A stretch of DNA of 5,062 bases from a virus: IMG/VR virus record IMGVR_UViG_3300045988_002830, positions 1-5,062 of that record, one strand, 5' to 3'. Under the pieces are notes generated by a model that saw only the letters and a program-made list of their open reading frames with translations, did no database searches and was not told the DNA's origin. The position numbers were made by a program, and so were the translations under genes. Numbering within the stretch: position 1 is the first letter of the stretch; each line of letters begins with the position of its first letter. Positions 984 through 5,062 of this stretch are shown piece after piece.

Positions 984-1897
984 GACTGATTCTCTTCCAT
1001 AACGCGTCTCAATTTAGCAGCTTTCAGCTCTTGGACGCGTTCACGAACTGAAAGACGTTGAGGCGAAGTCTCGCCAGTATCTTCAAAATCGCGACCTCGC
1101 TTTTCGCGAAGACGCTTAATCTCTTCAAAGCGAACGACATCAGAACGCTCAAGCAACCTATCGAAATAAGCCGGAGGCGACATCATTATCTTCTCGCTAA
1201 GAATAAGACGATCATTAGTATAAATATCAGTCATGTACTTTTCACAAAAGTCATGACCAATTCCGGGCTTTAGCGAACAATGACAAAACTCAGCAACTTT
1301 GCCATCGTAATGTTCAAGCTTCAAAGGGCCTGTAATCTTCTTTGTCACATAACGAGCAACGTAAGCTGCAGTCTCAAAATTTACTGCGCCAATTGAACTA
1401 AAACCAAACGGCCAAAGTTTCTCAAGCGTACGACTACGATATAAGTTATTGCCTCGACGAATCGACCAGAGCTGTTTATCAACAAAGGTCACACCAAAAA
1501 TAATTGCATGATAGTGAGGACGGCCAAGCTTATCGCCATATTCGCCACACATAAAAAAGCGAAGCTGTTGACCAAAACGGCTCATGAAGTATTTACGCAT
1601 GCGCTTCACGAACAGCTGAAAATGCTCGTAATGAAGTGAGCCATCGGCAGGCAAATGAGCATCATCATAAGTCAGCGTAAGAAACATGTTGTTCTTATGT
1701 GACCTAGCTTCGACTACACATCGAGCAGCCCATTCGCGAGATTTCGCAAGACGGCAACCGATGCACTGACCGCAAGGAATTTTGAATTCGCTAAAAGGAA
1801 TCGCTTTTGACGGATCGAAAGTAACTGCGTTACTACGTCCGTCCTTTGTTTTCTGACCAGCAAGTCGATAAGCAGTTATCGGATGAAAGCACCGCAT
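980..1897 (-). CDS. VP4: Replication initiation protein VP4 (HUH rolling-circle endonuclease, phiX174 A-like), 305 aa
   Basis: N-terminus MRCFHPITAYR and CGQCIGCRLAKSREWA zinc-finger-like box are typical of the gokushovirus Rep N-terminal domain. RCR motif I FLTLTYDD, motif II (HUH) RPHYHAIIFG and motif III AAYVARYVTKK (catalytic Tyr plus Lys) are present. ATG at 1897..1895 has no obvious SD. Stop TGA at 982..980. Confidence 0.93.
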   Translation of the reverse strand: MRCFHPITAYRLAGQKTKDGRSNAVTFDPSKAIPFSEFKIPCGQCIGCRLAKSREWAARCVVEARSHKNNMFLTLTYDDAHLPADGSLHYEHFQLFVKRMRKYFMSRFGQQLRFFMCGEYGDKLGRPHYHAIIFGVTFVDKQLWSIRRGNNLYRSRTLEKLWPFGFSSIGAVNFETAAYVARYVTKKITGPLKLEHYDGKVAEFCHCSLKPGIGHDFCEKYMTDIYTNDRLILSEKIMMSPPAYFDRLLERSDVVRFEEIKRLREKRGRDFEDTGETSPQRLSVRERVQELKAAKLRRVMEENQS

Positions 1898-2115
1898 GAG
1901 GCACGCACTTCAGCAGAAAGTTCACGAAGAATCGTCGCGCGAGTAGAGCGCGGACGACAAGCAAAAGAAATTAAAGTGCGCTCTCTACCATCTGACTGCT
2001 TCTGACGAAGCGACCACAAAACATGCTTCAAGCGACCGTAGTAAACAGTATCTCCAGGCACGACCCAACACTCGCCAAAATCTTGGAGAAAGATCATAAA
2101 TCGCTTAGTAGCCAT
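1876..2115 (-). CDS. Hypothetical protein, 79 aa (MATKRFMIFLQDFGECWVVPGDTVYYGRLKHVLWSLRQKQ...), unknown function; 3' end overlaps VP4 start by 22 nt
   Basis: ATG at 2115..2113 has a near-ideal SD (minus strand GGAGGttgcgATG, 5-nt spacer). The ORF track starts 4 codons earlier at a TTG (2127). It is co-oriented with and sits in the variable slot between the small basic protein and Rep. I recognise no family. Confidence 0.4.
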   Translation of the reverse strand: MATKRFMIFLQDFGECWVVPGDTVYYGRLKHVLWSLRQKQSDGRERTLISFACRPRSTRATILRELSAEVRASCGAFIR

Positions 2116-2205
2116 CGCAACCTCCAAATGTCAAAAATGTTAAATTTGCTCAACTTGGTGAATATGTTAACAATGACTACTATGTCGAGAAACAAGGATT
2201 AACCC

Positions 2206-2328
2206 TTAAATGCGAAAACCACCGCGCATCGGAGTAGCACGAGTATTCAAAGTCTTCGTGCGTGATGCGCCTTTACGGAAAATACGCTTAGATGCTTTAC
2301 GAGAAAGCTTGTGACGACGACGAGACAT
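2206..2328 (-). CDS. Small arginine/lysine-rich putative DNA-binding protein (40 aa, MSRRRHKLSRKASKRIFRKGASRTKTLNTRATPMRGGFRI), J/ORF8-like
   Basis: Internal ATG at 2328..2326 has a strong SD (minus strand GTGAGGTttatATG, 5-nt spacer). 14 of 40 residues are R/K and none acidic, like the phiX174 J and gokushovirus ORF8 small basic proteins. The ORF-track version 2206..2430 starts at a TTG without SD and adds a hydrophobic N-terminus, so it is judged less likely. Stop TAA at 2206..2208. Confidence 0.55.
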   Translation of the reverse strand: MSRRRHKLSRKASKRIFRKGASRTKTLNTRATPMRGGFRI

Positions 2329-2430
2329 ATAAACCTCACTTTTTAAAAAACTTCTTAATGGCCTTGAAGGCCTCCCAAACAGCTGAGCCAGAGCGCAGCA
2401 GAACATCAACAAACTTAAGAATAGTATCAA

Positions 2431-3051
2431 TCATTTCGCAAGATGCGCAGCACCAACAGCGGAATTCGTCACCGGCGCTGTGGAATTAAATGGATTTATC
2501 AAATTCATCCACTGGCCAAAAGACCAAGCACCTTTGTGGTCCTTCATGTAATCAAAAACCATTTTTTGCTTCTCAGAAGCAATAGCAGAATTCTGAGTCA
2601 TGAATTTCGCTTGCTTTAAATTCTCTTCTTGAATCTTATTAGCAATCTCTTGACCTTTAGTCTGCGACCACATTAGATTTGAAGAAGAATCAGCAGCTAC
2701 AGACTGCGCACGCTTCAAACCTGCATCAGCTTGCAGAGCAGAATTCTGAACATAAGTTTGATCTTTCAAAGCATCTTTCAAACTCTTCTCAGAACGTTGC
2801 GTATCAGTGCGCGCACCAGCCTCCATAGCGCCGGCAATATCAGGAGGAACGATCACAGGAGCGTTACCAGAAGCGCCTTGACCACCGGCAGAAAGAATCG
2901 GATTGAGACCTGCTTTTCTCAAATCTTCAACTTCCCACTGATGACGATTTTTTATCACTTCTTTCTGATGCTTCCAACCAAAATATGCAGACATAGCAGA
3001 ACTGGACAAATTAGCAGCACCACCTATCGCTTCAGCCCAAGGAAATCCCAT
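2431..3051 (-). CDS. VP2: Minor capsid / DNA pilot protein VP2 (206 aa)
   Basis: ATG at 3051..3049 preceded by AGGAcggtgatATG (SD AGGA, 7-nt spacer). Position immediately downstream of VP1 is as in gokushoviruses. Contains the VP2-typical DLRKAGLNPIL(S/A)GG motif plus a Gly/Ala-rich segment and Gln/Ala-rich low complexity. Size is in the VP2 range. Confidence 0.8.
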   Translation of the reverse strand: MGFPWAEAIGGAANLSSSAMSAYFGWKHQKEVIKNRHQWEVEDLRKAGLNPILSAGGQGASGNAPVIVPPDIAGAMEAGARTDTQRSEKSLKDALKDQTYVQNSALQADAGLKRAQSVAADSSSNLMWSQTKGQEIANKIQEENLKQAKFMTQNSAIASEKQKMVFDYMKDHKGAWSFGQWMNLINPFNSTAPVTNSAVGAAHLAK

Positions 3052-3052
3052 A

Positions 3053-3115
3053 TCACCGTCCTAAAGCAAAAATAACAACAGTACCAACAGCGGCAAGCCA
3101 AATAAATAAAGCCAT
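3053..3115 (-). CDS. Candidate 20-aa hydrophobic mini-ORF (MALFIWLAAVGTVVIFALGR) between VP1 and VP2; possible translational-coupling leader for VP2 or tiny membrane peptide
   Basis: The minus-strand sequence reads TAAGGAGTTGTTATG. This is a canonical Shine-Dalgarno (TAAGGAG) immediately after the VP1 stop, 5-nt spacer, then ATG at 3115..3113. It has 20 sense codons and stop TGA at 3055..3053, one nt before the VP2 ATG (TGAtATG). The peptide is entirely apolar and about one TM-helix long. Caveat: the coding strand is T-rich, which biases any frame toward F/L/I/V. Confidence 0.3.
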   Translation of the reverse strand: MALFIWLAAVGTVVIFALGR

Positions 3116-3124
3116 AACAACTCC

Positions 3125-4789
3125 TTAGAAGTGATCAACCAAGCCAGGTACCGAATACACAGGCATCGGACGAGCACACTTCAAACGAATGTAAGAATCA
3201 AAAAGGAACTGCGGTTCATTCTGAACGGCGATTACGCGGCTGACGGGGGGATCGTCTCGAATAAACTGAGCACTCAACGTAGGCAAAGAGTTGAACTTCT
3301 GCGCTAAATGCCAGCTGTCCAATGGCTGCGGATCTGTCGAGCGGAATTTACCTGTGATTTGGCCAGGGTAATAACGATACTCTGCATAGCGTTCCTGATA
3401 GCCAAAAACCTTATCGTCATCAGCAGTACCCTGCGCGTAGATCTCTTTATTGAGAACAGCTTGCTCGCCAAGGTGAGCGAGGACAGGCCAATAAAAATCA
3501 AAGCGACCTTGACGCGACCACATACGATTTAAACCTTGCTGATAAGTAAGATCAGCACGGACGTTCACAAAGCCAAAGACGTAGCCATGTTCGACAAAAG
3601 ACTTCGAGAAACCATGAAAGCTATCAGCGACAACACCATACGCCGCCAAATTACCTTGCGGGGTAGTGTCATTAGTAGACGAAGTTTGCTGGACAGGATT
3701 AATCGAAATGCGAGCTGATGAGCCACCAAGATACTCAGGACGTTGCAAACGAGCATCAGGCGAGATTACACCGAAGTGAGAACGAAGAATTTCTGTGTAA
3801 CGCGTACCACCGCGTGCGTCGCGCTCATAGAGCTTCTGAATCTGAAAAGCTTGACGCAAGTCGTTAATAGAAATTGGAGTTGCTTTCGAAAGATCAGCTG
3901 TAAAACCATCAGAAGTAATACCATACTTACCCGCGAAACTAGAGATCTGGCTCGGATGAGAATCCGTGGCGGTAAAAGCTCCTTGAAAAGGTATAGGGTC
4001 AGAGCCAGCCCAAGCGGCATCCTTCCTGCCAATTGAAAAAGGAACGGTTTCTTTAAAAAGAACTTTATCAGACCAGTTACTCACGCTACCAATGCCACCG
4101 TCAACGTGATAAGAGCCTACCTGTCTATAAAAAGAAACATCACCAGAAACGGGAATTGAACCACCGAGAGAAATTTCAACACCAGGGCCTTTCTGTGGCC
4201 ACGGTAGGCATGATGTGAAATAGTCGTGACGCTTACCACGATGGGCCAACTTATAGTCAGCCAGATTGTCTGGACCATCACCAGTCGGAACTTTCAAAGA
4301 TTCTTGAAGGTTCTCATCTCTAAACCACTCATTGAAAATGAGATTATAAGCGCGGAAAGGAAGTGCGTTTACTTTCAAAGCTTTATCGACATTCGTCGGA
4401 AGACCGAAATAATCCCAAAGCGTTTGATTAGGAACTTTCGTGCCAGAAACAGTAGGAATCAAAAAGTCTGTTGAATCATTTGGATTCTTCTGCTCACCAT
4501 TAAACTTCTGCCAATTATCCCAAACCAGCCGATTGGGAACAAAAAAGAAGAAAGTCTCCAAATACAGGTTGTCCATAAAGGGCACAATCGGAGTAGCCAA
4601 TCGAGCAAACAAAGTAGCTGTCAGCTTAAAGCTATCTCCGGGAAGCACTTCATCAACGTAAAAAGGTACAAGAAAACCAGAATCAAAAGTAGTCTTGTAT
4701 CCATGTGATCTGTCAAAAACAGATCGAGGAATTTGAGTAGAAGGAATCTGAGAGAACAGATGCTGAGTAGAACGATTAACAGAAGACAT
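3125..4789 (-). CDS. VP1: Major capsid protein VP1 (Microviridae F-like jelly-roll capsid), about 554 aa from ATG 4789; ORF track extends to an in-frame TTG at 4831 (568 aa)
   Basis: Long ORF, the only size consistent with a capsid protein. The N-terminal region MSSVNRSTQHLFSQIPSTQIPRSVFDRSHGYKTTFDSGFLVPFYVDEVLPGDSF matches the conserved gokushovirus VP1 N-terminus (SQ.PS..I.RS.FDRSH..KTTFD.G.L.P...DEVLPGD.F) as I recall it. The conserved block normally begins about 20 aa after the Met, which favours ATG 4789 over the TTG at 4831. Stop TAA at 3125..3127. Confidence 0.92.
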   Translation of the reverse strand: MSSVNRSTQHLFSQIPSTQIPRSVFDRSHGYKTTFDSGFLVPFYVDEVLPGDSFKLTATLFARLATPIVPFMDNLYLETFFFFVPNRLVWDNWQKFNGEQKNPNDSTDFLIPTVSGTKVPNQTLWDYFGLPTNVDKALKVNALPFRAYNLIFNEWFRDENLQESLKVPTGDGPDNLADYKLAHRGKRHDYFTSCLPWPQKGPGVEISLGGSIPVSGDVSFYRQVGSYHVDGGIGSVSNWSDKVLFKETVPFSIGRKDAAWAGSDPIPFQGAFTATDSHPSQISSFAGKYGITSDGFTADLSKATPISINDLRQAFQIQKLYERDARGGTRYTEILRSHFGVISPDARLQRPEYLGGSSARISINPVQQTSSTNDTTPQGNLAAYGVVADSFHGFSKSFVEHGYVFGFVNVRADLTYQQGLNRMWSRQGRFDFYWPVLAHLGEQAVLNKEIYAQGTADDDKVFGYQERYAEYRYYPGQITGKFRSTDPQPLDSWHLAQKFNSLPTLSAQFIRDDPPVSRVIAVQNEPQFLFDSYIRLKCARPMPVYSVPGLVDHF

Positions 4790-4907
4790 GTACTTATCCA
4801 ACAGCAATAAATAAAAAAGCGACCAGTTCAAAAAGTCCTCTCATTGAACCGGTCGCCTCGCGGTCCTAAAGCAAAGGCTCCAAAAGCTTTAACACCGTAT
4901 AACAAAG

Positions 4908-4935
4908 CATATACCACAAAACAACCAGAAAGCAA
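4908..4935 (-). promoter_or_regulatory. Candidate sigma70-like promoter upstream of VP1 (minus strand -35 TTGCTT, 16-nt spacer, extended -10 TGgTATATG)
   Basis: Minus-strand reading GATGTTTGCTTTCTGGTTGTTTTGTGGTATATGCTTTG. The -35 hexamer (4935..4930) is 4/6 and the -10 hexamer (4913..4908) is 4/6, with a TGn extension. Located in the only intergenic region, 75-120 nt upstream of the VP1 start candidates. Pattern match only. Confidence 0.25.
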
Positions 4936-4963
4936 ACATCCGAGCTGTGCGTTGGGTACCCGC

Positions 4964-5062
4964 ACGCACATCGGGGTGTCACCGGAACCAGTTACATCAA
5001 GTAAGTAACTGGTTCCGGACCTTCCCCGTGCGAACATCGCTGATATACATAGAAAAAAAAAC
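4964..5062. repeat. Terminal redundancy copy 2 (identical to 1..99), includes second copy of the palindromic hairpin (4982..5018)
   Basis: Exact 99-nt match to the window start. Confidence 0.95.

What the first reader, a model, noticed from the sequence alone, without database searches (positions are those of the whole stretch)
3053..3124. A textbook SD (TAAGGAG) drives a 20-codon all-hydrophobic mini-ORF whose stop overlaps the VP2 start (TGAtATG)
Immediately after the VP1 stop the gene-sense strand reads TAAGGAGttgttATG. This is the best ribosome-binding site in the genome, yet it initiates only a 20-aa peptide (MALFIWLAAVGTVVIFALGR). That peptide terminates one nucleotide before the VP2 ATG. 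Two non-exclusive readings follow. (i) It is a translational-coupling device that sets the VP2:VP1 ratio: the pilot protein is needed at about 12 copies against 60 capsid subunits. (ii) It is a genuine single-pass membrane peptide. Gokushoviruses have no recognisable lysis gene (no phiX174 E homologue), so any conserved tiny TM peptide is worth testing as a lysis or membrane-targeting factor. Caveat: the T-rich coding strand makes hydrophobic codons likely in any frame.
Basis: partly seen in the sequence, partly recalled or inferred. Interest (0 to 1): 0.6.

Follow-up and report, generated by a model that had tools for sequence, protein, structure and literature searches.

The report
Unannotated 20-codon membrane-peptide gene before VP2
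A tiny, never-annotated gene for a 20-residue greasy membrane peptide sits between the capsid and pilot genes of a group of human-associated gokushoviruses; evolution has kept it as a protein, yet a few natural genomes have lost it, so it is a real but non-essential accessory gene and only a candidate for the missing lysis function.

Summary
On the minus strand the VP1 stop lies inside TAAGGAG, the only such site in the genome. Five bases later ATG (3115) opens a 20-codon ORF, MALFIWLAAVGTVVIFALGR. Its TGA lies one base before the VP2 ATG (3051).

The ORF behaves as a protein-coding gene.
- All 43 distinct junction sequences aligned (window, GenBank and IMG/VR relatives), and 29 contigs from an anchor search, keep it without indels.
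- Variation is codon-periodic (changes 43/12/89 by codon position).
- pN/pS is about 0.25 in this frame and 0.7-2.3 in the other two.
- No polar or charged replacement occurs at residues 2-19.
- Stop-to-start spacing is always 1-2 nt.
- Codons 17-19 are almost invariant even at silent sites, and they carry VP2's own AGGA ribosome site.

Three relatives at separate places in the tree lack the ORF precisely, with the strong ribosome site directly before VP2. It is therefore dispensable.

Unrelated 28-39-residue membrane mini-ORFs fill the same slot in other gokushovirus lineages. In one lineage the mini-ORF follows a LAS-type peptidase-fold gene.

Best reading: an accessory membrane micro-protein translationally coupled to VP2. 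A role in lysis is plausible but untested. The peptide is absent from a 15-billion-protein collection.

The parts
3125..4789 (-). VP1 major capsid gene. Its TAA stop (3127-3125) is the first three bases of the ribosome site for the mini-ORF.
   Evidence: Pfam Phage_F, E = 1.5e-191. ORF list. Sequence read.
3121..3127 (-). Shine-Dalgarno TAAGGAG, 5 nt upstream of the mini-ORF ATG.
   Evidence: It is the only TAAGGAG on the sense strand, and every other gene has a 3-5-nt match. It is kept in nearly all relatives; the variants are TGAGGAGG, TAAGAGG, TAAGGAT and TAATGAGG.
3053..3115 (-). The mini-ORF: 20 codons plus TGA, encoding MALFIWLAAVGTVVIFALGR, one uninterrupted hydrophobic helix-length segment.
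   Evidence: Translation. Intact, without indels, in 43 distinct junction sequences and in 29 contigs from the anchor search. Parsimony omega about 0.24 and pairwise pN/pS 0.28 in this frame only. Codon-periodic variation. No polar or charged replacement at residues 2-19.
3059..3062 (-). VP2's own weaker Shine-Dalgarno AGGA, 7 nt before the VP2 ATG, embedded in mini-ORF codons 18-19.
   Evidence: Codons 17-19 (GCT TTA GGA) are 43/43, 43/43 and 40/43 identical even at synonymous positions, whereas other four-fold sites vary freely.
3049..3055 (-). Termination/initiation junction TGA-T-ATG: the mini-ORF stop, a 1-nt spacer and the VP2 start.
   Evidence: In relatives the stop is TGA (25), TAA (16) or TAG (2), always 1-2 nt before the VP2 start.
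2431..3051 (-). VP2 (DNA pilot protein), the downstream cistron of the coupled pair.
   Evidence: Annotated as VP2 or DNA pilot protein in the six GenBank relatives. Its frame is +1 or +2 relative to the mini-ORF, depending on the genome, so no fusion protein is possible.

Best explanation
The mini-ORF is a real, translated, previously unannotated micro-gene. Its product is a 20-residue peptide that is essentially one hydrophobic helix, long enough to span or embed in the cytoplasmic membrane.

It is translated from the strongest ribosome-binding site of the genome, in the late VP1-VP2 gene block. Ribosomes finishing it terminate 1-2 nt before the VP2 start codon. VP2 is therefore probably made partly by termination-reinitiation and partly from its own weaker AGGA site, which lies in the last codons of the mini-ORF.

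Selection acts on the peptide. It keeps a hydrophobic residue (T at codon position 2) at every position, rather than merely keeping the frame open. Natural genomes that have precisely lost the ORF exist. The peptide is therefore an accessory factor, not an essential one.

Most likely it is a membrane-active helper of late infection. It could tune the timing or efficiency of cell exit or membrane permeabilisation, as a holin or phiX174 protein K does.

Shown here: the coding status, the selection, the coupling architecture and the dispensability. Inferred: membrane insertion, actual reinitiation, and the role in exit.
For: **Conservation and selection**
- The ORF is intact in all 43 distinct junction sequences aligned (window, five GenBank records, 37 IMG/VR contigs) and in 29 clade contigs from an anchor search that allowed spacing of 55-85 nt. 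There are no indels. The start is ATG (42) or GTG (1), and one genome has a stop one codon early.
- Nucleotide diversity by codon position is 0.091/0.027/0.177.
- Parsimony counts give 87 synonymous and 56 non-synonymous changes on 15.3 and 41.7 sites. Omega is about 0.24, binomial p = 1.6e-17. The other two frames give 0.74 and 2.28.
- Pairwise pN/pS is 0.28, against 0.94 and 2.08 in the other frames.
- pN is 0.060, comparable with the VP1 C-terminus (0.050) and lower than the VP2 N-terminus (0.105).
- None of 17 distinct replacement states at residues 2-19 is polar, charged or proline. Neutral expectation is 28%, p = 0.004.
- Polymorphic sites number 9/4/14 of 18 per codon position. Fisher test of position 3 against position 2 gives p = 0.002.

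**Expression signals**
- The ribosome site is unique and the strongest in the genome.
- Codons 17-19 are nearly invariant at silent sites, as expected for VP2's ribosome site.
- Stop-to-start spacing is always 1-2 nt.

**No rival non-coding signal**
- RNA folding z = +1.08; there is no terminator, promoter or Rfam match.

**Same slot in other lineages**
- Unrelated 28-39-residue single-segment hydrophobic ORFs with the same layout occupy this slot in other lineages. The layout is a ribosome site at the VP1 stop and an ORF end at the VP2 start.
- In L060, L072, L344, L345 and L347 a conserved membrane protein of about 30 residues follows a LAS zinc-peptidase-fold gene in this slot.
Against: - There is no direct evidence of translation, membrane insertion or any phenotype.
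- Three genomes (L036, L297, L300) lack the ORF and appear otherwise complete. Whatever it does can be dispensed with, unless those genomes are defective and complemented by co-infecting relatives.
- At 20 residues with no extramembrane domain, it is shorter than any lysis protein I know of.
- Most relatives come from one IMG dataset (3300045988). They are related, recombining sequences, so parsimony counts are inflated and p-values are optimistic.
- Synonymous diversity is about half that of the flanking genes (0.21 against 0.44-0.52). Some nucleotide-level constraint is therefore superimposed on the coding signal.
- The host of this clade is unknown.
Confidence: 0.6

Rival explanations
1. 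Pure translational device. The ORF is only a leader cistron that attenuates or couples VP2 translation, and the peptide itself is a by-product with no function.
For: - The stop lies 1-2 nt before the VP2 start in every genome.
- The deletion variants put the same strong ribosome site directly on VP2. Functionally, then, the ORF sits between VP2 and what may once have been VP2's own ribosome site.
- The ORF is dispensable in nature.
Against: - A by-product peptide should evolve neutrally. Instead omega is about 0.24 in this frame only, position 2 is nearly frozen, and no replacement is polar or charged.
- The length is fixed at exactly 20 codons in about 50 genomes.
- VP2 keeps its own ribosome site, which appears to be under constraint, so it is not strictly dependent on coupling.
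Confidence: 0.1
2. A partner of VP2. The peptide acts with the pilot protein, for example helping it insert into or assemble at the membrane, or travelling with it as a minor component of the virion or DNA conduit. Cis-coupled translation would give co-localised synthesis.
For: - Tiny hydrophobic ORFs in several gokushovirus lineages are always adjacent to VP2. They lie before it in this clade and in L073, L104, L153, L165, L324 and L325. They lie immediately after it in L049-L055 and L085.
- Coupling ties their synthesis to VP2.
Against: - Adjacency may simply reflect the fact that the VP1-VP2-J junctions are the few places in a compact genome that tolerate insertions.
- The VP2 N-terminus is the normal Gly/Ala/Ser-rich type seen in genomes without a mini-ORF.
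- Deletion variants exist.
- There is no structural evidence.
Confidence: 0.15
3. The essential single-gene lysis protein of these phages: a functional analogue of phiX174 E or of the levivirus Sgl proteins that blocks a membrane step of cell-wall synthesis.
For: - Gokushoviruses lack a recognisable lysis gene (PMC7062461). Protein E is confined to Alphatrevirus (PMC12596118).
- The window has no peptidase.
- It is a small single-segment membrane peptide, strongly expressed with the late genes.
- The diversity and patchiness of the slot's mini-ORFs resemble the de novo, fast-evolving lysis genes of RNA phages (my own knowledge).
Against: - Three relatives lack it, and no substitute hydrophobic ORF is visible in L036.
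- At 20 residues with no soluble domain and no proline, it is unlike E.
- It has no match in Pfam or PHROGs.
- Cultured gokushoviruses (EC6098, phiMH2K, Chp2) lyse their hosts without such an ORF at this junction.
Confidence: 0.1
4. Not coding at all. The stretch is a T-rich spacer, translational enhancer or nucleic-acid structure between VP1 and VP2, and the ORF is an accident of composition.
For: - The stretch is 48% T, and two of its three frames read as hydrophobic in the window.
- An open 19-codon frame occurs by chance 36% of the time.
- Synonymous diversity is lower than in the flanking genes.
Against: - Three-base periodicity of variation and frame-specific omega.
- Start and stop are kept in every genome that has the stretch.
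- The second hydrophobic frame is closed by a stop in most relatives.
- The region folds no better than shuffled sequence (z = +1.08), and there is no terminator, promoter or Rfam match.
Confidence: 0.03

Closest known systems
phiX174 lysis protein E (Microviridae amurin, inhibitor of MraY)
   Same: - It is a small membrane-anchored protein of a microvirus that has no wall-degrading enzyme.
- The open question it would answer, how gokushoviruses lyse, is the one E answers for phiX174.
   Different: - E is 91 residues, lies in an alternative frame inside scaffold gene D, and depends on a transmembrane proline.
- This peptide is 20 residues, free-standing between VP1 and VP2, and has no proline.
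- It has no sequence match.
- It is naturally dispensable.
phiX174 protein K (small non-essential membrane-associated protein reported to affect burst size; from my own knowledge)
   Same: It is a small, hydrophobic, non-essential accessory protein of a microvirus. This fits the pattern seen here: selection where the ORF is present, but tolerated loss.
   Different: - K is 56 residues and overlaps genes A and C.
- It has no sequence similarity to this peptide.
- The role of the present peptide is untested.
Single-gene lysis proteins of ssRNA phages, e.g. the 37-residue LysM/SglM that blocks MurJ (PMC12506998)
   Same: - They are very short single-segment membrane proteins.
- As a class they are highly diverse and unrelated in sequence, and arise at different genome positions. 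The mini-ORFs of the gokushovirus VP1-VP2 slot show the same pattern.
   Different: - They belong to a different virus realm.
- The known examples are about 35 residues or longer.
- They are essential for lysis in their phages.
Holin partner of an endolysin. Here: the LAS-peptidase-fold gene plus a membrane protein of about 30 residues, found in the same slot of L060, L072, L344, L345 and L347.
   Same: - Same genomic slot.
- Same size class.
- Same layout: the ORF ends at the VP2 start, with VP2's ribosome site in its last codons.
   Different: - The window has no peptidase gene.
- The 20-residue peptide has no charged C-terminal tail.
- It does not share the NWExIxLxxTNIxALFV motif of that family.
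Translationally coupled upstream cistrons and leader peptides in bacterial and phage operons
   Same: - Strong ribosome site.
- Short ORF.
- Stop within 1-2 nt of the next start.
- The downstream ribosome site lies inside the upstream coding sequence.
   Different: Here the encoded peptide is itself under purifying selection for hydrophobic character. That is not expected of a pure coupling leader.
Ibs-type type I toxins of enterobacteria (18-19-residue hydrophobic membrane peptides; from my own knowledge)
   Same: Comparable length and near-total hydrophobicity. They show that a peptide this short can be membrane-active.
   Different: - Those are chromosomal toxin genes repressed by antisense RNAs.
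- No antisense promoter or RNA family match was found here.
- There is no sequence similarity.

Membership tests
Protein-coding gene under purifying selection | Start, stop and frame conserved across diverged relatives | tested here: met
   All 43 distinct junction sequences and the 29 anchor-search contigs keep the frame with no indels. The start is ATG or GTG, and the stop is TGA, TAA or TAG.
Protein-coding gene under purifying selection | Excess of synonymous over non-synonymous change in this frame only, with codon periodicity | tested here: met
   Omega is about 0.24 (p = 1.6e-17), against 0.74 and 2.28 in the other frames. Changes by codon position are 43/12/89. pN/pS is 0.28.
Single-pass membrane peptide | Uninterrupted hydrophobic stretch of about 18-20 residues, maintained in evolution | tested here: met
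   GRAVY is 2.0-2.5. It is the most hydrophobic window in the genome. None of 17 replacement states is polar or charged.
Single-pass membrane peptide | Demonstrated insertion in the membrane | not testable with these tools
   This needs fractionation or a reporter fusion. The peptide is also below the 30-residue minimum of the structure predictor.
Translationally coupled upstream cistron | Stop codon overlapping or within a few nt of the downstream start, conserved | tested here: met
   The spacing is 1 or 2 nt in every genome carrying the ORF.
Translationally coupled upstream cistron | Downstream translation depends on upstream translation | not testable with these tools
   VP2 also has its own AGGA under apparent constraint. 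No conserved structure that would sequester the VP2 start was found.
phiX174 E-type amurin | Sequence homology to protein E | tested here: not met
   No Pfam or PHROGs family matched at E <= 1, apart from a chance-level hit.
phiX174 E-type amurin | Embedded out of frame in the scaffold gene; transmembrane proline essential | tested here: not met
   The ORF is free-standing between VP1 and VP2. No proline occurs in any variant.
phiX174 E-type amurin | Inhibits MraY and causes lysis | not testable with these tools
   An experiment is needed.
Holin of a holin-endolysin cassette | Adjacent to a cell-wall hydrolase gene | tested here: not met
   No peptidase or lysozyme domain was found in the eight ORFs scanned, which include every major gene of the window. 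This feature is met in other lineages (L060 type).
Holin of a holin-endolysin cassette | Membrane segment(s) plus a charged cytoplasmic C-terminal tail | tested here: not met
   The peptide ends ...FALG(Q/R/N/H/C), with at most one charged residue.
VP1 read-through extension or mini-ORF-VP2 frameshift fusion | Conserved frame relation with the neighbouring gene | tested here: not met
   The ORF is in frame with VP1 in most genomes, but L030, L038 and L269 break that relation. VP2 is +1 or +2 depending on the 1- or 2-nt spacer.

The most novel reading that the evidence does not exclude
The VP1-VP2 junction is the general exit (lysis) locus of gokushoviruses. It would be filled in different lineages by independently evolved membrane mini-proteins, with or without a LAS-type peptidase. 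The 20-residue peptide of this clade would then be the smallest phage lysis or holin-like effector known. It has been missed because gene callers ignore ORFs this short.
Probability: 0.2. Interest if true: 0.8.

Novelty: new variant of a known kind. Interest (0 to 1): 0.55.

Why it matters
How gokushoviruses leave their hosts is an acknowledged gap. They are among the most abundant ssDNA phages of the gut and the oceans. They lack phiX174's protein E, and only some carry a peptidase (PMC7062461, PMC3394797, PMC12596118).

This work turns a 63-base stretch, left unannotated in the six GenBank relatives examined, into a concrete testable candidate. It is a conserved membrane micro-protein expressed from the best ribosome site of the genome.

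The same slot carries other membrane mini-ORFs in other lineages. In one lineage the mini-ORF follows a peptidase-fold gene.

The finding also illustrates how length cut-offs hide real genes. None of the four peptide variants looked up occurs in a collection of 15 billion predicted proteins.

The natural deletion variants temper the claim. Whatever the peptide does, the phage can live without it.

Tried and rejected
- **Origin by tandem duplication of the VP2 ribosome site and start region.** Alignment scores are no better than shuffles (p = 0.5 and 0.24). Not supported.
- **RNA or DNA structure, terminator, promoter, known RNA family.** Folding z = +1.08. The MFE pairs the ribosome site with VP2 codons 3-5, but that pairing is lost in relatives with FGW instead of FPW. 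No terminator, promoter or Rfam match.
- **Read-through extension of VP1.** The ORF is in frame with VP1 in the window. The relation is broken in L030, L038 and L269, and TAA is a strong stop.
- **Frameshift fusion to VP2, or a signal peptide for VP2.** The frame relation differs between genomes (+1 or +2).
- **Family searches with the 20-mer and six analogous peptides.** Pfam and PHROGs gave nothing meaningful.
- **tblastn of the peptide against all fetched loci, looking for relocated copies.** Only weak similarity was found (local E = 0.02) to the mini-ORF that follows VP2 in L049-L052, which shares an IW(H)WL...G...LG pattern. Homology is not established.
- **Genome-wide count of mini-ORFs with both a ribosome site and a membrane segment.** Density is 0.34 per kb in intergenic sequence and 0.18 per kb in alternative frames inside genes, but the intergenic count is dominated by this clade. 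Outside the clade the signal is suggestive, not statistical.
- **Stricter automatic screen.** It recovered only part of the manually verified cases.
- **Cultured gokushoviruses as a test bed.** EC6098, phiMH2K and Chp2 have hairpins, not mini-ORFs, in the VP1-VP2 gap.
- **Literature searches**. No description of this ORF was found.

Full report
**What the window is.** The window is a complete gokushovirus genome read on the minus strand.
- VP1 is at 4789-3125 (Phage_F, E = 1.5e-191).
- VP2 is at 3051-2431.
- A 32-codon ORF overlaps the VP2 stop.
- A 40-residue basic J-like gene follows.
- The remaining genes are VP4 (1897-980), VP5 (983-693) and VP3 (from about 614).
- Six GenBank records, all human-associated gokushoviruses, share 83-86% nucleotide identity. 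None annotates anything between VP1 and VP2.

**Check of the observation.**
- TAAGGAG is at 3127-3121. Its TAA is the VP1 stop.
- Five bases later, ATG at 3115 opens a 20-codon ORF, MALFIWLAAVGTVVIFALGR.
- TGA is at 3055-3053, followed by one T and then the VP2 ATG at 3051.
- TAAGGAG occurs once on the sense strand, and all other genes have 3-5-base matches. 'Best ribosome site in the genome' is therefore correct.
- The ORF is the most hydrophobic 20-residue window in all three sense frames.
- The composition caveat is valid. The stretch is 48% T and a second frame is also hydrophobic. That frame carries a stop in most relatives.

**Is it a gene?**

Relatives were collected in two ways.
- A VP1-based scan of IMG/VR gave 80 loci.
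- An anchor search used TAAGGAG, 55-85 free bases, then the VP2 start, so indels and frame breaks could be seen.

Conservation of the ORF:
- In the clade with about 79-92% VP1 identity, 43 distinct junction sequences and 29 anchor-search contigs (about 11 of them new) all keep exactly 63 bases between start and stop.
- The start is ATG in 42 and GTG in 1.
- The stop is TGA (25), TAA (16) or TAG (2).
- One genome has a stop at codon 20.
- The stop is always 1-2 nt before the VP2 start.

Pattern of variation:
- Nucleotide diversity is 0.091/0.027/0.177 at codon positions 1/2/3.
- Polymorphic sites number 9/4/14 of 18 per position.
- Parsimony on a tree built from the flanks gives 87 synonymous and 56 non-synonymous changes on 15.3 and 41.7 sites. 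Omega is about 0.24, p = 1.6e-17. The two other frames give 0.74 and 2.28.
- Pairwise pN/pS is 0.28, against 0.94 and 2.08 in the other frames.
- Amino-acid divergence (pN 0.060) is like that of the VP1 C-terminus (0.050) and lower than that of the VP2 N-terminus (0.105).
- Every replacement at residues 2-19 stays within A, V, I, L, F, G, S, T or C. None of 17 states is disruptive, against 28% expected (p = 0.004).

A T-rich non-coding spacer cannot produce this pattern. Silent third-position T's vary freely, while second-position T's, which make the residues hydrophobic, are frozen.

The region has no significant fold (z = +1.08), no terminator, no promoter and no Rfam match.

Caveats:
- The sequences are related and recombining.
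- Most come from one dataset.
- Parsimony counts on an imperfect tree are inflated, so the p-values are optimistic. The direction and frame-specificity of the signal are robust.

**A second layer of constraint.**
- Synonymous diversity in the mini-ORF (0.21) is half that of the flanks (0.44-0.52).
- Codons 17-19 (GCT TTA GGA) are 43/43, 43/43 and 40/43 identical. The other Ala, Gly, Thr and Val codons vary at the third position.
- These codons contain AGGA, 7-8 nt before the VP2 start. VP2 therefore keeps its own moderate ribosome site inside the mini-ORF.

**Natural knock-outs.**
- Three contigs lack the ORF precisely.
- L036 reads TAAGGAGTTGATT-ATG-GGA-TTT.
- L297 and L300 read TAATGAGGTTGAT-ATG-GGA-TTC.
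- In all three the strong ribosome site sits directly in front of VP2.
- L036 has all the other genes and no substitute hydrophobic ORF.
- In a VP1 neighbour-joining tree, which has no support values, the three fall at separate places inside the clade. L297 is 90% identical to L280 and L034, which carry the ORF.
- An earlier, smaller tree placed L036 basal, so for L036 ancestral absence is not excluded.
- In several members the ORF is flanked by the 8-base direct repeat TGATATGG. This offers a simple route to precise excision.
- Conclusion: the gene is maintained by selection where present, but it is dispensable. Alternatively, those genomes are defective and complemented by relatives.

**The same slot elsewhere.**
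- Of 123 more distant gokushovirus loci, 82 have VP2 starting within 20 nt of the VP1 stop, leaving no room for an ORF.
- Several lineages carry unrelated single-segment hydrophobic ORFs with the same layout: a ribosome site at or overlapping the VP1 stop, an ORF ending at or overlapping the VP2 start, and often VP2's ribosome site in the last codons.
- Examples are L073 (30 residues), L104 (32), L153 (38), L165 (28; a prophage in a Bacillota MAG, also with TAAGGAG on the VP1 stop), L324 (about 34) and L325 (39).
- In L049-L055 and L085 a similar mini-ORF lies immediately after VP2. It is followed by a homologue of the window's 32-codon ORF and then the J-like gene.

*The L153 type.*
- It is the sister lineage of the window's clade.
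- It is a prophage integrated next to lexA, in chromosomal contigs of up to 921 kb.
- A contig labelled 'uncultured Veillonella sp.' has 96% identical flanks but lacks the 38-residue ORF. That lineage therefore shows the same presence/absence polymorphism.

*The peptidase module.*
- In L060, L072, L344, L345 and L347 the slot holds two genes.
- The first encodes a protein of about 100 residues whose AlphaFold model (pLDDT 90) matches the hedgehog-N/LAS zinc-peptidase fold. It has the invariant H...D...HxH residues.
- The second, directly after it, encodes a conserved membrane protein of about 30 residues with the motif NWExIxLxxTNIxALFV. It ends at the VP2 start.
- This looks like an endolysin plus a holin-like partner. 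It is probably the M15-type peptidase noted earlier in some microviruses (PMC3394797).
- It shows that exit functions can reside in this slot. It does not show that the 20-residue peptide is one of them.

**Mechanism.**
- Shown: the ORF is coding and under selection for a hydrophobic helix. It has the strongest ribosome site. It terminates at the VP2 start. VP2 keeps its own site. The ORF can be lost.
- Inferred: abundant synthesis late in infection, insertion in the cytoplasmic membrane, and partial termination-reinitiation feeding VP2.
- On the Hessa scale as I recall it, the summed insertion free energy of the consensus is about -2 kcal/mol. This figure rests on my own knowledge, not on a tool.
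- My preferred function is an accessory membrane-active role in cell exit: timing or efficiency, like a holin or phiX174 K.
- The main alternatives are a VP2 partner, a pure coupling leader, and an essential lysis protein. The last is weakened by the natural deletions and by the absence of such an ORF in cultured gokushoviruses that nevertheless lyse their hosts.
- For phiMH2K, the annotators had already pointed to a different, 109-residue membrane ORF (OrfN) as E/K-like.

**Novelty.**
- Four peptide variants were looked up exactly, and none is in a collection of about 15 billion predicted proteins. The 32-residue ORF after VP2 and the 38-residue L153 peptide are present there as 'hypothetical protein'.
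- No Pfam or PHROGs family matches.
- Literature searches found no description. They confirmed that the gokushovirus lysis gene is regarded as missing (PMC7062461) and that protein E is confined to Alphatrevirus (PMC12596118).
- The kind of thing is known: a small viral membrane peptide and a coupled short cistron. This instance and its extreme shortness are new.

**Verdict.**
It is a genuine conserved membrane-peptide gene with coupling architecture. Its lysis role is unproven and, if real, not essential.
- Interest is moderate to good, because the finding gives a concrete, cheap experimental handle on an open question.

Noticed in passing
window 2336-2434 (-): A 32-codon ORF, MIDTILKFVDVLLRSGSAVWEAFKAIKKFFKK, has its ATG overlapping the VP2 stop (ATGA). 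It reads as an amphipathic helix with a lysine-rich tail. It is conserved in L036. Small ORFs that look related occupy the same place in L085 and L050-L055. It is recorded in the protein collection as 'hypothetical protein' (17 cluster members). It is another unexplored small late gene and an alternative membrane-active candidate.
   Followed up: partly
window 2206-2328 (-): A 40-residue arginine/lysine-rich ORF, MSRRRHKLSRKASKRIFRKGASRTKTLNTRATPMRGGFRI, with GAGG 5 nt upstream. It is the J/VP8-like DNA-binding protein. The six close GenBank relatives do not annotate it.
   Followed up: partly
L036:1986-2013; L297 and L300, directly after the VP1 stop: Three relatives lack the mini-ORF exactly, with the ribosome site directly on VP2. 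In several members the ORF is flanked by the 8-base direct repeat TGATATGG, which could mediate precise excision.
   Followed up: yes
L060:4536-5010, L072, L344:1354-1771, L345:1087-1509, L347:796-1213: Between VP1 and VP2 there is a two-gene module. The first gene encodes a protein of about 100 residues with a LAS/hedgehog-N zinc-peptidase fold (pLDDT 90; invariant H, D and HxH). The second encodes a conserved membrane protein of about 30 residues (NWExIxLxxTNIxALFV) that ends at the VP2 start. This is a putative endolysin plus holin-like cassette. The peptidase family has more than 200 mostly unannotated relatives.
   Followed up: partly
L337-L340 (for example L339, from a 921-kb contig), L153, L157: The sister lineage is a gokushovirus prophage integrated beside lexA in a bacterial chromosome. 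One contig is labelled uncultured Veillonella sp. Its 38-residue membrane ORF between VP1 and VP2 is present in some copies and cleanly absent in others with 96% identical flanks.
   Followed up: partly
L049:4372-4444, L050-L052, L055, L085:3886-3970: In these lineages a 23-39-residue hydrophobic ORF (MGSLTIWHWL..., MNDLSLWHWLVVF...) lies immediately after VP2 instead of before it. It has GGAGG in the last VP2 codons. It bears a weak resemblance (IW(H)WL...G...LG) to the window's peptide. Homology is not established.
   Followed up: partly
L075 and L079 (VP1-VP2 gap); L054: Non-hydrophobic small ORFs of 49-57 residues occupy the same junction and share a motif (YHP...L.(E/D)(I/L)A...D.ML). The VP1-VP2 junction appears to be a hot spot for small accessory genes of several kinds.
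   Followed up: no
L341 (EC6098) 3519-3572; L342 (phiMH2K) 1603-1683; L343 (Chp2) 1699-1803; also L060, L074, L085: Cultured gokushoviruses and several metagenomic ones carry a G+C-rich hairpin in the VP1-VP2 gap instead of an ORF. In EC6098 the hairpin is followed by a T run, like a terminator.
   Followed up: no
window 1876-2127 (-): An ORF of about 80 residues just upstream of, and overlapping, the VP4 start (...MATKRFMIFLQDFGECWVVPG...). It has a recognisable counterpart in L036 (...MATAAFRITLKDFGVCWLIPG...). It has no Pfam match and is unannotated in the relatives.
   Followed up: no
window 4828-5037 (-): A 69-codon ORF upstream of VP1 with a hydrophobic stretch. In L036 the reading frame ends earlier, although a block (GTSYLLDVTGSGDTPM.VRVPNA) is conserved. 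The conservation may therefore be at the DNA level, for example an origin or regulatory region, rather than coding.
   Followed up: no
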